Of a DNA stretch of 64,000 nucleotides, positions 1-6,000 are shown in pieces (within the stretch, counting starts at the first letter, position 1; the number at the start of each line of letters is the position of its first letter). The DNA is from Phycisphaerae bacterium (lineage in GTDB: Bacteria > Planctomycetota > Phycisphaerae > UBA1845), in assembly GCA_963666835.2 (NCBI GenBank), contig CAXXGO010000003.1:1-64000 (forward strand). The letters run 5' to 3'. Position numbers: made by a program.

Positions 1-3000
1 TCTCGTTCCTCGACGCTGCCCTACGACCCATCGCATGACACGCGTTTTTGCGGCAGGTCTCGTTCCTCGACCGTGCCCTACTAGGTCGCATACCGCTCTC
101 GTTGCTCCTAGCCGGCACTCAGCGGGCCTTCGAAGAGTGTCTGGAACTTGGCGTAGTCGGCCAGGTCGACGTCGAGGTCGCCGTCCAGGTCGCCGGGTTT
201 GGCTAATTGGATTACCCAGTACATGATCAGTTCATCGATACCGTATCCGCGATATCGGCGCCGCCCAGTCCGACTACTCCCACGCCGGATAGCCCGTTGG
301 CGTCGCTGTCGTGGAGGATCAGTTCGAAGCAGCCCATGTTCGCCCCGTTGTCGTACAAGCAGATTCCGGATTCGAGAATGGTGTAATCAGGGTCCGGGGT
401 CCAGGTGATTTTGTCCGTGCCGGCCGCGCCGGTGCCCACGTCGAACCGCCAAGACTGAAAGGCGGTGGAGTTTTCCGAGATTGCGCCCGCGGGCACGAGA
501 TCTGAGCCGTCGCTTGTCCAGTAGTTCACTTGAAGGAGATTCGGATCCGGCAGTCCCGGGCCGTTATCCGCTCCCGCGATCCACATATCCACCCCGGAGA
601 TAAGGTTGAGCCCGGCCGTTTCGGTACCGGTGCCGAAAGTGTGGTTGTCCGGAAGATCGTCCAGGTACCAGGCCGTCGTCTCATCCTGAACCAGCGCCGT
701 GGCGTCGAAGGTGTCGTTGGTGGCGTCGCGGGCCGGAGCCGGCGGGAAGCTATCGCTTCGCGCGCTTAGCAGGTTGGCCGGTGGCGCCTTCGAGGCTGTT
801 GCTGACAACACGGTCTTGGCCTGGATGGCGGGTCGGGTTCTCAGATCCTGAGGATCGTGGCCGAAGACCGGAAGCAACAAACCGCAGATTCCCACGAGCG
901 CTAAACCGGTTATCAGGTGACTCTTCTTTGACATGCTATTCCCCTTCCTGAATTCGTTAATACGCAAGACCGGTCGAACTCCGCCGGCCACCTTATTCCG
1001 CTGAGAATCCGCAGTTAGTTCGGTCGTCGCCCGCGACCGGAGGCTGTGGAGACCCCGATACCGACCCCTATGGTAAGGATTATCGGGTCCCGAGTCCAAG
1101 AGAAATCTGCCAAGTTCTGAAGATGGCCGGCAGCCCGTTCCTGCCGCTAAGCCGTTTGAGTGCGGTCGGGCGTGTCTGCGACCGCCGGTTCTCGCCGTGA
1201 GGCCACGCGGTGCCGGAACCGCATGCTCCGGCGCCTACTGCTCCGTGGTTGCTCGCCAGCGGTGTTTTCGTGATACTCTGGTGACCGGCATCGTGCTCTT
1301 TAACGTGTCCGGACACTAATCCTTTCGCAACGGTTGTGAGGGCGACATGGCGAGTACAACGGGCAGCAACAATGATGGGCCGGCAAGGCGCGGGGTTCTT
1401 TCGCTGATCGGGAATACGCCGCTGGTGCCGATGCTTCATCTCAGTCCCAATCCGGCGGTGGAGATCTTAGCGAAGATCGAGAAAACCAGCCCGGGAGGGT
1501 CGGTCAAGGATCGGATCGGCCTGTGGATGATCGAACAGGGCCAGCGTTCGGGGAGAACTCACCGAAGGTAAGACCATTATCGAAGCCACCAGCGGCAACA
1601 CCGGCATCGGCTTAGCCGTGGTCGCGGCCAGCAAGGGGGTTTCCGATTCTGCTGGTCATGAGCGAAGGCGTTTCGGTGGAGCGGCGGAAGATTCTCGCCG
1701 CCCTCGGCGCGGAGTTTCTGCTCACCCCGGCCGACCGGGGAACGGACGGCGCCATCGAGCGGGCCTATGAGCTGGCGGCCGAGGATCCGGATCGCTTCTT
1801 TATGCCGGACCAGTTCAACAACCCGGCGAACGTGCTGGCCCACTACCACACCACGGCTCCGGAGATCTGGGCGCAGACCGACGGGCGGATAACGCACTTC
1901 GTGGCCACGATGGGTACGACGGGTACGCTGATGGGTTGCTCGCGGCGTTTCCGCGAGCTCAATCCGCGGATTCGCACCATCGGGGTGGAGCCCTATTTGG
2001 GGCACCGTATCCAGGGTCTGAAGAATCTTAAAGAGGCCTACCTTCCCGGCATTTATGATTCGACCGGGCATGACGAGAAGGTCAACATCGAAGACGACGA
2101 CGCGTACGAGATGGCCCGGCGCCTCGCCCGCGAGGAGGGGCTGCTGGTGGGGATGAGTTCGGGAGCGGCGATGCACGCCGCGTGTGAGCTGGCCGGTCAG
2201 ATCGAATCTGGCGTGATCGTAACGATTCTGGCCGACGGCGGCGATCGGTATCTGTCTACGCCGTTGTTCCAGGTCGCCGAACCCGAGGCCGTCAGCGTCA
2301 AGCTGAATTTCTTCAATACGTTGACCCGTCGCTATGAACCGTTCGAGCCGTTGTCGAAGGGTACCGAGGCTACGATGTATTCGTGCGGACCGACGGTGCA
2401 TCGCAGGCCCCACCTGGGCATTCTGCGGCGGATGCTGGCGGACGACCTTATCCGGCGCACGCTCGAGTTCGCTGGTTATACGGTCAAGCATGTGGTGTGC
2501 ATTACGGACGTGGACGACACCACGATTCAGGAGGCCGAGCGCACCGGCGAGCCGCTCGCCGAGCTGTGCGCCAGACATGAAGCGGAGTTCCACGAGGATC
2601 TTAAGGCGCTCGGCGTGAATCCGGCCGACGTTTACGCCCGCTCGTCGGAGTCGGTGGATGAGATGATTGCGCTGACCCGACGGCTGGTTGATACGGGTTA
2701 TGCCTACGAGAAGCTCAACTCGGTTTACTTCAATATCGGCCGGGTGAAGACCTATGGGGAGATTTCCGGCAAAGACCTCGGCAAGATTAAGATCGGGGCA
2801 ACGGTGGATCTGGAACGCTATGAGAAGGACGACCCGCGCGATTTCACGCTCATGCGACGTTCGACTCTGAGTGAACTGCGCAAGGGGCTAAGCTTCAAGA
2901 CTGAGTGGGGCAACGTGCGTCCGAGTTGGCACGTGCAATGCCCGGCGATGGCCCGTATTCACCTGGGTGACCGGTTCGACATCCACACCGGTTCGGTCGA

Positions 3001-6000
3001 CCTGATCTTCCCGCATCACGAAAACGAGCTGGCTCAGTGCCGCGCCCTTGGCGGTGAGCCCCAGGCTCGTTACTGGCTCCATTCCGAGTTGGTGCTGACC
3101 GCCGGGAAGAAAATGACCGATACGGAGGGGGTTCGCGAGACTCTCCCGGATCTGATTCAGCGAGGCTACTCGGCGCGGGAGATTCGTTTCTTCCTGCTTC
3201 GGACGCACTATCGCCAGCCGGTCCACCTTACTGATGAACGGCTGGAGGCCGCGCGGACCTCGCTGCGAAGATTGGACGAGTTCGTGGCCAATCTGGCGAA
3301 CTTCCCGGTCACGGAGACCCGGGCGGTCGAGGTCGAGGTGGAAGGTTGGATCAGTGAGATGAAGGAGGAGTTTCACCGGGCGCTGTTCAATGATATGAAC
3401 ATCTCTGCGGCGCTCGCGGCGTTGTTCAGTCTGGTCAGGAAGGTCAATTACCTGATGCACCAGGGGCGACTCCACCGCGAAGACGTCGGCGTGGTGATGG
3501 ACGGTCTGCGCTCGGTGGATGAGGTGCTGGGAATCCTGCCGCCGTCGGAAGAACCTGAAGATCTGCCCGCAGAGATCGAAGATCTTATGCGTCAGCGTGA
3601 CAAGGCCAGGGAGGCGAAGGACTTTGCCCAAGCCGACGAGATCCGTGACACCCTGGCCGGCCTCGGTTACATAGTGGAAGACGTCCTCGGCGGCACGCGC
3701 GTGAAGCGGAAGATCTAACCGGGGAACTCAGCGGTCGGGTGGCCCATCTCCTCAGAGGTGGGGGATTCCGGGTGGCATGGGCTAACTTGTTAGCCCGTGT
3801 GGCATCATGACAACGAAATGTCACCCTGATCGGAGCGAGCGCCCGCGTGTTGGACATCCGTAGCGTACGACGCGTAGACTTCCGCCTGAGCCCATGCAAC
3901 TACGACGACGTCAGAACAACGCAGGTACCGGTGTACTCCTGCGTGTCCATGAAGTCGTCGCTGAGCTGCACGGTTACCGTAACAGTGATGACCGGATCAA
4001 CTCCGATGATTGTCACGATCGTTCGGGCGGCGCCGGGCTGATCGAAGGACGCGCCGGTCGAGTACCATCGATACGTGGGCGTTCCGACCGGATCGACTCC
4101 GGTCACACTGGCATTCAGGACCGCGGTCTCTCCGAAACTTGCTTGGGTGGGGCACCCAGAGATCTCCACTGCGATTCCCGGGTCCGTGCAGGTTCCGCTT
4201 GATTCATCGCAGGTCTGGTCGGAGTCGCAGGGCTCGTCGCCGTCGATGCAGACTTCTTCAGAGCAGGTCTCCGCCCCGTTGCAGAAAACGCCGTCGTCGC
4301 AATCCGCATCCGTCAGGCACTCGGGTTCTTCTTCCAACTCGCACTCACCGGTCTCCGGATTGCACAAGTAGCCGTCGGAACACGCAATCGGCGTATTCGT
4401 GCAGCCGCCGGTGGCGTTGGAGACATCGGTAGTGCACGGGTTACCGTCGTCGCACGGGTCGATCTCGGTGGAGGTTACGCATTGACCGAGCTGCGGATGG
4501 CAGGCGCTGCCTTCGGGACATTGCATCGGGGTATACTCGCATTCCGCTTCGCCATCGTCGCCTACCACGCAGGTGTCGACCGTGCAGAGGTTGCTGTCAT
4601 CGCAGACGACGTCCGCGCAAACACCCTGGGTGTCGTCGGCGGGATCGGCGTTTGCATCCAAGCTCCCGCCATCGCCGATCGACGAAGTCGTGCAGCCCCC
4701 TGCGATTAGGGTTGCCGCAACGAACAACGCCCAGCTGGCGATGACTTCCGATAGCCTGATCTTATGCCTCATACCGGATACCCCTTTCTGCGGGTATTGT
4801 AGGTTCTGAGGACTGTCCGGTCGATAATTGCGCCGAAGGCACTACCTGGCGGCTAATCGGGCATCTGCACGTACGCCATTAGCTTGTAGGCCAGCCGAGC
4901 CGCGAGGAATTCAGTGACGACCTGGCCGGGGATGGGCGCGACCTCGACAATATCGGCCGCCACGATGGTCTTTTCGGCCGCCACGAGCCGAAGCAGGCTG
5001 ACTACCTGATACCAATCCAGCCCACCCGGCTCCGGGGTGCCCGTGCCCGGAGCGTACGCCGGGTCGAATCCGTCTATGTCGATGGTTACGTAGACCTTCT
5101 CGCCGAGAGCATCGAGGACGCGGTCGACCCACCCGTCTTCGAAGAGGCAGTCACGGGCGGTGACCGGGTTGATCCCGCTTCGTTTCATGAACCGGTGCTC
5201 TTCCGCGGCAACGCAGCGAATCCCGACCGGGACGATCGTAGCGCCCAGCTCAACGACCCGCCGCATGACGCAAGCGTGAGAAAGCGGGGAGCCGTGGTAG
5301 CGGTCGCGCAGATCCGCGTGGGCGTCGATCTGCAGCACGGACAGCTTCTTGTGTTTGGTCATGACCGCGCGGACCAGCGGGGCGGTGACGCTGTGGTCGC
5401 CGCCTAAGCTGAAAAGGAACTTCTCGTCGCGCACCACTCGGCGAGAGCTCTTGAAGATCTCCTCGTGCATTGCCTCGGGGCCGCTTACGATCGGTTCGAT
5501 CTCGTCCAGAGTGGCTATGCCGCAGTCATAGCACTCCCCCGCCAGCTCTTCGTCGAACTCCTCGACGTGGTGAGAGGCGTGGATGATTGCTCGGGGGCCG
5601 TTACGGGCTCCGGTCTGATAGCTGGTCGTGGCGTCATAGGGGATCGGCAATACTGCGAAAGCCGCCTTGTCATAGACGGAATACCGCGGCTCCAGAGCCA
5701 GGAAGCCATTGGGGGTTGTACTCATGATTCACCTAGCAATAATCGGCGACTAATCCAAGAGGCGGTGACCCGCCCAAGACGGGGTGGCCCGCCTCTTTAG
5801 AGGTGGGGGACTCGGACCAGTTCCGTGTTTATGTCCCCCACGGCCAAAGCCATGGGCCACCCGTCCACCCGACCCAGCTTGGAATACACGGGCAAACAAG
5901 TTTGCCCATGCCACCCGTGTCCGCCCGCGAGGCTGGGAAGCCCGCTTCTTCAGAGGTGGGGGGCTCGGACCAGTTCCGTGTTTGTTTCCCCCACGGCTAA

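What a model noticed while it worked through the whole genome (the two positions that open the first line are those of the whole stretch)
1347..3718. Cysteine-synthase-type PLP domain fused to a divergent second cysteinyl-tRNA synthetase
Besides a normal CysRS (g01201) the genome has a second, 37%-identical CysRS whose reading frame runs straight on from a CysK/CBS-type pyridoxal-phosphate (PALP) domain; three other genomes of the order carry the same fusion as one intact frame of 788-847 aa, and its class I signature motifs are altered (HIGH reads HLGV/HLGI, KMSKS reads KKMT). I read it as a two-step enzyme that makes cysteine (or a persulfide/analogue) from sulfide on the PLP domain and hands it directly to a Cys-adenylating ligase, either to charge tRNA-Cys without free cysteine or, like the CysRS paralog MshC, to build a cysteine-containing thiol. 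New would be a PLP-aaRS fusion.
Evidence so far: g01637 (C3 1658-3718, 686 aa): Pfam PALP (model 85-295 of 295; residues 1-193), tRNA-synt_1e (235-533), DALR_2, CysS_C; NCBIfam TIGR00435 CysRS 364.6 bits (cut 340); best Swiss-Prot CysRS of Methanosarcina/Chlamydia, 39%. The first 84 model positions of PALP lie in g01636 (C3 1347-1571) in another frame, one frameshift apart. Six-frame search with the 231 residues spanning the junction in 40 other order genomes: full-length matches (74-77% identical) in 3 (G067, G065, G072), inside open frames of 829, 788 and 847 aa; none in 5 genomes of the same family. The G067 frame (815 aa) has a complete PALP domain (2-295/295, E 8e-73) + tRNA-synt_1e + DALR_2 and is 74% identical to g01637 over 664 res [...]
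(Added by a program. Inside this text positions count along the whole contig: contig position 1 is position 1 of the stretch shown here. "Call 12" and the like, gene names such as g00115 and contig names such as C1 are that model's own, and its searches are not shown. The text may have been shortened before it was handed on; [...] marks where a part breaks off. The agent that wrote the report below was given it as the finding of a first reader that could run no searches.)

Follow-up and report, generated by a model that had tools for sequence, protein, structure and literature searches.

The report
Cysteine synthase with tRNA-reading pseudo-synthetase
This gene joins an intact cysteine-making enzyme to a copy of the cysteine tRNA-charging enzyme that has lost key ATP-using residues but still keeps the residues that read tRNA-Cys, so it probably lets the cell tune cysteine synthesis to its tRNA and does not charge tRNA itself.

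Summary
The fusion is real and the gene is intact. The window has two one-base insertions (1550, 1635), not one; contigs of three runs lack both, giving 789 aa. The N-half is a CysM-type cysteine synthase with all catalytic motifs (365 of 365 fusions). In the 124 closest fusions the CysRS half keeps the four zinc ligands (124/124), but the second HIGH His/Asn and the second KMSKS Lys are gone (0/124, against 84/84 in standalone CysRS). Over 372 fusions the anticodon residues are kept in at least 99%, also in six proteins that have lost the zinc site. Every carrier genome checked also has a standalone CysRS. Best reading (0.5): a cysteine synthase regulated by a tRNA-Cys-binding pseudo-synthetase. 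A still-active, rewired ligase is not excluded (0.2); an MshC-like role is unlikely. I found no description in five paper searches. This scan noted the family before on other genomes. No activity has been measured.

The parts
1347..3718 (+). One gene, cysM-cysS* fusion, 789 aa once two assembly insertions are left out
   Evidence: 82% identical to intact G066 ortholog
1401..2270 (+). CysM-type fold-II PLP cysteine synthase domain
   Evidence: PF00291 3-295 in three pieces; ortholog passes TIGR01136 (356.7 vs 344.15); best solved relative E. coli CysM 2v03
1500..1514 (+). SVKDR, PLP Schiff-base Lys (E. coli CysM K41)
   Evidence: K in 365 of 365 fusions
1550..1550 (+). Extra G in a G4 run: assembly error 1
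   Evidence: left out in contigs of X1, X3, X4
1588..1602 (+). TSGNT substrate-binding loop
1635..1635 (+). Extra G in a G5 run: assembly error 2
   Evidence: left out in contigs of X1, X3, X4
2012..2026 (+). QGLKN loop, Lys at the place of E. coli CysM R210
   Evidence: K in 364 of 365 fusions; substrate role recalled, not tested
2271..2302 (+). Short flexible linker
   Evidence: pLDDT under 50 at ortholog residues 307-320
2303..3715 (+). CysRS-derived half: Rossmann/CP1, DALR helical bundle, anticodon-binding domain
   Evidence: fold matches 8qhp (rmsd 1.8) and 1u0b
2384..2431 (+). C28 zinc ligand, new R35, altered HIGH (HLGI), R42-R43
2927..3028 (+). Cysteine/zinc pocket: W205 H206 C209, H224, H234, E238; GG(226-227) changed to GS
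3110..3124 (+). KMSKS position reads KMTDT; second Lys lost
3596..3682 (+). Anticodon-reading residues R423, R427, D436, R439, D451, all kept
   Evidence: role of R427/D436/R439 from PMC4536326 passages, R423/D451 recalled

Best explanation
A cysteine synthase with a built-in tRNA-Cys-reading module. Step 1 (well supported by sequence, not assayed): the PLP half, as a CysM-type dimer, makes free L-cysteine from an activated serine (O-acetyl- or O-phosphoserine; which is open) and sulfide. Step 2 (supported by conservation): the CysRS-derived half no longer adenylates cysteine at a useful rate, but still grips tRNA-Cys by its GCA anticodon; ordinary charging is done by the separate CysRS. Step 3 (inferred): the tRNA 3' end reaches the emptied, now Arg-rich active site (R35, R42, R43), and in clades such as this one, which keep the zinc, a cysteine thiol (free or on the tRNA) can also bind there. 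Step 4 (inferred, least certain): occupancy is passed across a domain interface to the PLP dimer, so that uncharged tRNA-Cys switches cysteine synthesis on and cysteine or Cys-tRNA switches it off. It would work like HisZ on HisG, or the HisRS-like sensor of GCN2, without being a member of either family.
For: PLP residues K41, SGNT 69-72, Q140, G174-T175-G177-T178 in 365 of 365 fusions. In 11 of 24 sampled carriers of G124's phylum the fusion is the only TIGR01136 match found, so it should supply free cysteine. ATP-site loss: H/N40 in 0 of 124 and K269 in 0 of 124 close fusions against 84 of 84 standalone; G227 0 of 124 against 78 of 84; 319 of 372 fusions lack both H/N40 and K269; different subclades lose the motifs in different ways. 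HIGH and KMSKS stabilise the transition state (PMC5919687 passages). Anticodon residues R423 368/369, R427 366/369, D436 368/368, R439 367/368, D451 367/368, as high as or higher than in standalone CysRS; kept as R-R/K-D-R/K-D in 6 of 6 fusions that have lost C28, C209 and E238. R43 is present in 353 of 372 fusions, the other 19 having Ser, as do all 18 intact-motif ones. A standalone CysRS is present in 6 of 6 carriers of this order, 4 of 4 others and 24 of 24 in the phylum sample (G124 is in both). Complex prediction of PLP dimer with CysRS half: weak support, score 0.56, best of 3 controls 0.29, runs agree in at least 89% of contacts, partner pLDDT at least 86; the mark was reached by 116 of 157 solved complexes and 2 of 215 mismatches, but at 0.60 or under by only 18 of the 157 and by both mismatches.
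Against: No binding, activity or regulation has been measured; steps 3 and 4 are inference. This clade keeps H37 (124/124), G39 (123/124), K266 (123/124), D/E229 (122/124) and all four zinc ligands, and has gained an invariant Arg two residues before HIGH, which could stand in for K269; KMSKS is variable across class I enzymes (PMC5919687). The full-length model has pTM 0.60 and a low-confidence linker, so no fixed domain arrangement is shown. All 6 carriers of this order have another cysteine synthase, so the gene is dispensable here. No CysE or SerC match was found in this 92%-complete genome, so its substrate supply is unexplained. Sequence counts come from clustered top hits and are not independent.
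Confidence: 0.5

Rival explanations
1. Still-active second CysRS with a rewired ATP site, fed directly by the PLP half. The new Arg before HIGH replaces the lost KMSKS Lys, as an upstream Lys does in ArgRS (recalled, no paper found).
For: H37, G39, K266, D/E229, zinc ligands and anticodon residues all kept in the close clade; R35 124/124; R or K at 35 in 255 of 353 fusions lacking K269; 18 fusions with fully intact motifs show that a bifunctional form exists; adjacent separate cysM and intact cysS genes occur (L032, L161, L171, L180).
Against: H/N40 is replaced by Leu/Val/Ile, G227 by Ser/Ala, G204, W184 and N66 also changed; sister clades have lost H37, the KMSKS motif or the zinc site and remain fused; no carrier checked relies on it as sole CysRS; the intact-motif fusions are a separate starred clade in trees of both halves.
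Confidence: 0.2
2. ATP-free chemistry on tRNA: the CysRS half holds an aminoacyl-tRNA-Cys and the PLP half converts it (Ser, O-acetyl-Ser or Sep to Cys, as SepCysS does) or persulfidates or removes the cysteine.
For: Anticodon recognition is the most conserved feature while adenylation motifs are lost; tRNA-dependent cysteine synthesis exists in bacteria (PMC5424206 passages).
Against: The TSGNT loop and Q140, which bind a free alpha-carboxylate in cysteine synthases (recalled), are unchanged in 365 of 365 and the same as in standalone relatives; no SepRS or SepCysS passes its cut-off in this genome; in 11 of 24 carriers the domain must also serve as the cell's ordinary cysteine synthase.
Confidence: 0.12
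3. Feedback by free cysteine only (strictly HisZ-like), or a structural passenger; tRNA binding is a leftover.
For: Four zinc ligands kept in 297 of 319 fusions that lost both ATP residues; HisZ is a HisRS paralog in histidine biosynthesis (PMC7373986 passage).
Against: Anticodon residues are better kept than the zinc site and survive its loss in 6 of 6 cases; five surface residues would not stay at 99% without use.
Confidence: 0.13
4. MshC-like ligase that builds a cysteine-containing thiol.
For: CysRS paralogs do this in mycothiol synthesis (PMC9437257, PMC2922099 passages); the paralog coexists with a canonical CysRS.
Against: Needs adenylation; TIGR03447 scores 196-201 against a cut-off of 485, below TIGR00435; anticodon domain kept; no MshA over cut-off; no shared acceptor-pathway neighbours among the 44 flanking ORFs of 12 other carrier loci scanned.
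Confidence: 0.04

Closest known systems
Canonical cysteinyl-tRNA synthetase (E. coli CysS, PDB 1LI5/1U0B; 8QHP; TIGR00435)
   Same: Whole fold from Rossmann domain to anticodon domain; zinc ligands C28, C209, H234, E238; anticodon residues; passes the TIGR00435 cut-off, hence the database label 'cysteine--tRNA ligase'.
   Different: H/N40, K269, G227, W184, N66 replaced; new invariant R35 and R43; N-terminal PLP domain; never the only CysRS in genomes checked.
Cysteine synthase B, CysM (E. coli 2V03/2BHS; TIGR01136 subfamily)
   Same: About 45% identity, all PLP and substrate motifs.
   Different: Lys in place of R210 in a QGLKN loop; below the CysM equivalog cut-off (349 vs 394); fused to a 470-aa CysRS-derived half.
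HisZ with short-form HisG
   Same: A synthetase paralog serving the biosynthesis of its own amino acid (PMC7373986 passage; regulatory role recalled).
   Different: HisZ is class II and a separate subunit; here a class I domain is fused and keeps the full anticodon-reading set.
GCN2 HisRS-like domain (recalled)
   Same: Inactive synthetase domain proposed to report uncharged tRNA to a fused catalytic domain.
   Different: Eukaryotic kinase, class II fold, broad tRNA range; no sequence relation claimed.
SepRS-SepCysS tRNA-dependent cysteine synthesis
   Same: Links a PLP enzyme, cysteine formation and tRNA-Cys (PMC5424206).
   Different: Class II SepRS and fold-I SepCysS; neither passes its cut-off here.
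CysRS* of Desulfobacterales and MshC
   Same: Extra CysRS paralogs beside a canonical enzyme (PMC9437257 passages).
   Different: CysRS* lacks the anticodon domain and charges SelC*; MshC is an ATP-dependent ligase; neither is described with a cysteine synthase domain.

Membership tests
Canonical CysRS | Zinc ligands C28, C209, H234, E238 | tested here: met
   124 of 124 close fusions, window included; ligand identities recalled, zinc role in PMC7373986
Canonical CysRS | HIGH/HIGN with second His or Asn | tested here: not met
   HLGI; H/N40 0 of 124 vs 84 of 84 standalone
Canonical CysRS | KMSKS with second Lys | tested here: not met
   KMTDT; K269 0 of 124 vs 84 of 84
Canonical CysRS | Anticodon-binding residues R423, R427, D436, R439, D451 | tested here: met
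   window has all five; 121 of 121 covered close fusions for the first four, 120 for D451
Canonical CysRS | ATP-dependent charging of tRNA-Cys | not testable with these tools
   needs assay
CysK/CysM cysteine synthase | PLP Lys, TSGNT, Gln, GTxGT, score over TIGR01136 cut-off | tested here: met
CysK/CysM cysteine synthase | Substrate (OAS or OPS; sulfide or thiosulfate) | not testable with these tools
   Lys at CysM 210 in 364 of 365; CysM-type enzymes differ in acceptor (PMC9855970)
MshC | TIGR03447 over cut-off, intact adenylation motifs, mycothiol pathway genes | tested here: not met
SepRS-SepCysS system | SepRS and SepCysS genes | tested here: not met
   best E 1.5e-9 and 9e-9, far under cut-offs, genome 92% complete
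CysRS* (SelC*-charging) | Lacks anticodon-binding domain | tested here: not met
   CysS_C domain present; definition from PMC9437257
HisZ-like / GCN2-like regulatory pseudo-synthetase (works like) | Loss of catalytic motifs with ligand sites kept | tested here: met
HisZ-like / GCN2-like regulatory pseudo-synthetase (works like) | Contact with the regulated enzyme | tested here: inconclusive
   weak support, 0.56 vs best control 0.29; pTM 0.60
HisZ-like / GCN2-like regulatory pseudo-synthetase (works like) | Ligand-dependent change of enzyme activity | not testable with these tools
   needs assay

The most novel reading that the evidence does not exclude
A prokaryotic biosynthetic enzyme switched directly by the charging state of one cognate tRNA: a protein-level T-box, in which a retired class I synthetase reads tRNA-Cys and turns a fused cysteine synthase on or off. 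The family would preserve the whole path of its origin: cysM-cysS operon, bifunctional enzyme that makes cysteine and loads it on tRNA (intact clade, labelled DPANN archaea where named), ATP-dead form with zinc (this gene), and zinc-less pure tRNA sensor (Desulfovibrio ferrophilus type).
Probability: 0.35. Interest if true: 0.9.

Novelty: new variant of a known kind. Interest (0 to 1): 0.72.

Why it matters
If true, cysteine synthesis in many sulfur-cycling anaerobes is controlled at the enzyme by tRNA-Cys, a form of control I know of for transcription (T-boxes) and a eukaryotic kinase but not for a metabolic enzyme. The family is common (24 of 81 sampled genomes in one phylum), is labelled as an ordinary tRNA ligase or cysteine synthase, and offers a graded series from intact synthetase to pseudo-enzyme with cultured or named members to test. 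Even the rival readings (a rewired class I site, or chemistry on tRNA) would be new.

Tried and rejected
Gene decay in this organism: rejected, both shifts are absent from contigs of three runs. Autoregulation through a tRNA-like mRNA leader: 1 of 13 upstream regions had a GCA-loop hairpin (4 pairs), chance rate 5-20% in shuffles; Rfam found only tRNAs in 11 loci. Linked or unusual tRNA-Cys: one ordinary tRNA-Cys on another contig; the tRNAs near 14 carrier loci are Pro, Arg, Ser. Conserved pathway neighbours: none among 49 ORFs scanned, 44 from other carriers and 5 from the window; a MetB-like gene follows the fusion in G017 only. Promoter and terminator scans were at chance level. Expression: no RNA holder listed, which says nothing either way. 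Whether the intact archaeal fusion is its host's only CysRS: not answered; the metagenome scan with P0247 gave standalone or adjacent genes, and none of the 5 loci read held a fusion. Two further long cysKM frames (L242, L243) are not fusions. Paper searches for the ArgRS compensating lysine and for CysRS His40/Lys269 found nothing usable, so those roles are recalled. Trees are FastTree only, with a long-branch warning for the zinc-less proteins; no one-clade test was run.

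
Full report
Observation. The ORF at 1658-3718 carries a cut PALP domain followed in frame by tRNA-synt_1e, DALR_2 and CysS_C and passes TIGR00435. 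The missing PALP start is spread over two further frames, 1401-1553 and 1561-1641, so the window has two shifts. Contigs of three public runs match the stretch with no other letters but leave out one G at 1550 and one at 1635, both in G runs (X1 spans the whole stretch in one contig; X3 and X4 are one sample; these may be the source samples). Without these two bases the frame 1347-3718 is open, 789 aa, 82% identical to the G066 protein. Source labels of the nearest homologues say Phycisphaerae and Planctomycetota.

Spread. Full-length open frames are in 5 of 120 genomes of the order. The 120 listed hits all bear both PALP and tRNA-synt_1e, as do the 120 (mostly labelled Desulfobacula/Desulfobacterales) and 116 of the 120 by my own filter. 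In 81 genomes of the phylum of G124, 24 have PF01406 and TIGR01136 matches in one frame of 704-850 aa, and 3 more hold a form too changed for the PF01406 threshold. All 24 also have a high-scoring standalone CysRS, as do 4 of 4 carriers and the 6 carriers of this order. In 11 of the 24 the fusion is the only cysteine synthase found at E 1e-70; in the 6 carriers of this order there is always another.

PLP half. Best solved relative is E. coli CysM; the intact ortholog passes TIGR01136 but not the CysM or CysK equivalog cut-offs. In E. coli CysM numbering K41, S69-T72, Q140, G174, T175, G177, T178 are present in 365 of 365 fusions with a full domain, and position 210 is Lys in 364. From memory, a basic residue there goes with thiosulfate or O-phosphoserine use; I found no paper passage for it, and C. 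jejuni CysM uses only OAS (PMC9855970, passages), so the acceptor is open. The 5 intact relatives have a CysE-like gene under the TIGR01172 cut-off (116 of 121 genomes do); this genome shows none, nor SerC (92% complete).

CysRS half. I aligned 124 close fusions (P0001 and P0051 dropped as duplicates) with 84 standalone CysRSs on E. coli numbering. Kept: C28, C209, H234, E238, H206, H224, H256 (124/124 each), H37 (124), G39 (123), K266 (123), and R423, R427, D436, R439 (121 of 121 covered). Lost: H/N40 (Leu 68, Val 36, Ile 20; 84/84 in standalone), K269 (Tyr 105; 84/84), G227, W184, N66. Gained: R35 and R43 (124/124). HIGH and KMSKS stabilise the activation transition state, and either His matters in TyrRS, though KMSKS is variable across class I (PMC5919687, passages). 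R427, D436 and R439 are the anticodon-contact residues mutated in PMC4536326 (passages); the other residue roles are recalled. The AlphaFold model (106 sequences) folds both halves well (pLDDT 88.6) with pTM 0.60 and a loose linker, and matches CysRS and cysteine synthase structures separately, with no solved fusion among the listed matches.

What the whole family keeps. Over 372 fusions and 200 standalone proteins (filter: match to E. coli CysS starting by residue 30 and reaching 275; three duplicates dropped; the standalone set includes a few cut fusions; the sets are clustered top hits, not independent draws): K269 19/372 against 191/200; H/N40 52/372 against 192/200; anticodon residues 366-368 of 368-369 covered. 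Of 319 fusions lacking both ATP residues, 297 keep all four zinc ligands, and all 316 with a covered C-terminus keep R/K427, D436, R/K439. The Desulfobacula clade has a gap at K266 in 119 of 119. Six fusions have lost C28, C209, E238, HIGH and KMSKS and still read R-R/K-D-R/K-D; one is WP_126381224.1 of Desulfovibrio ferrophilus. The order of retention is anticodon site, then zinc site, then ATP site. That points to tRNA-Cys binding as the function under selection.

Origin. Eighteen of the 372 have intact HIGN/HVGN and KMSKS; the five that bear a source name are Woesearchaeota, Nanoarchaeota or Nanobdellota. They form their own starred clade, apart from the altered fusions, in FastTree trees of both halves (147 of 223 dereplicated rows, 40 standalone drawn at random; 58 rows), so they are a second fusion or an early split; I ran no one-clade test. 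Separate, adjacent cysM and intact cysS genes occur in L032, L161, L171 and L180, and the L032 CysS shares the FTLLKRS segment of the altered clade. An operon that fused and then lost catalysis once another CysRS was present fits this; direction is inferred.

Mechanism. The PLP dimer makes free cysteine (sequence-supported). The other half binds tRNA-Cys but does not activate cysteine (conservation-supported). The tRNA 3' end, and cysteine where zinc is kept, occupy the old active site and set the activity of the PLP half (inferred). A prediction of the PLP dimer with the CysRS half (residues 322-738, anticodon end cut off) gave weak support: 0.56 against a best control of 0.29, contacts agreeing at 89% or more, partner pLDDT at least 86; 116 of 157 solved complexes and 2 of 215 mismatches reach the mark, but at 0.60 or under only 18 of the 157 and both mismatches. 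I put this reading at 0.5. Against it, this clade keeps more of the ATP site than its sisters and has a new Arg beside HIGH, so a rewired, active ligase stays at 0.2. Chemistry on an aminoacyl-tRNA (0.12) is weakened by the unchanged substrate loop and the lack of SepRS/SepCysS. Feedback by free cysteine alone or a passenger role (0.13) does not explain the anticodon residues. An MshC-like ligase (0.04) lacks ATP motifs, MshA and shared neighbours. No tRNA-like leader or linked tRNA-Cys was found.

Known or new. It is not a canonical CysRS (two defining motifs tested and not met), not MshC, CysRS* or SepCysS. It works most like HisZ or the GCN2 sensor domain without belonging to either. Five searches for the fusion listed no paper whose title or abstract start describes it, and passages read in PMC5424206, PMC9437257, PMC2922099, PMC7373986 and PMC11580382 do not mention it; I read no whole text and no supplements, aaRS paralog catalogues in supplements could list it, and most subscription journals are not in the library. 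PMC4519929 and bioRxiv 10.1101/2025.02.14.638259 (passages) added only background on CysRS allostery. This scan has noted the family on other genomes with a similar reading; those are unchecked AI notes, my reading was set down before I saw them, and I do not count them as support.

Verdict. A real, intact, widespread and apparently undescribed protein; new variant of a known kind (regulatory pseudo-synthetase), categorically new if direct tRNA control of a biosynthetic enzyme is shown. Interest 0.72.

Noticed in passing
P0244, P0246-P0252, P0257, P0258, P0264, P0268, P0270, P0278, P0292, P0294, P0297, P0322: Eighteen cysteine synthase-CysRS fusions with fully intact HIGN/HVGN, KMSKS and zinc site, named DPANN archaea where named; candidate true bifunctional enzyme in hosts usually thought biosynthetically poor.
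   Followed up: partly
L032, L161:24-2048, L171:4875-7299, L180:2088-4933: Separate but adjacent cysM-type and intact cysS genes (one 182-aa ORF between them in L180): likely operon precursor of the fusion. L032 is a 2.4-kb AT-rich contig in a genome that has another CysRS and may be misbinned.
   Followed up: partly
P0304, P0314, P0318, P0331, P0337, P0360 and kin: A subclade replaces zinc ligand E238 by Ala/Ser/Asp/Thr/Val while keeping C28, C209, H234 and HIGQ.
   Followed up: no
G000 whole genome: No CysE-like or SerC match although 116 of 121 order genomes have a CysE-like gene and this genome has two cysteine synthases; missing contig or another activated-serine route.
   Followed up: partly
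window 4853-7906 (-): Three-gene polyamine cluster: pyruvoyl arginine decarboxylase, deoxyhypusine-synthase-family protein, arginase/agmatinase-family protein.
   Followed up: no
window 3732-3800 and 5777-6070: REP-like intergenic repeats: a 90-nt direct repeat (89%), 27-32-nt sub-repeats in three copies, and a 32-nt inverted pair (94%), one copy just after the fusion's stop codon.
   Followed up: no
L109:8586-9830 (G017): A MetB/methionine gamma-lyase-family gene directly follows the fusion in G017 only; in G066 the fusion follows a heterodisulfide-reductase-like cluster.
   Followed up: partly
window 3900-4772 (-) and 227-1099 (-): Two secreted-looking proteins flank the gene; the first is cysteine-rich with a Dictyostelium-type repeat match, the second has no Pfam match.
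   Followed up: no
G000:C6:1320413-1320508: tRNA-Sec gene present.
   Followed up: no
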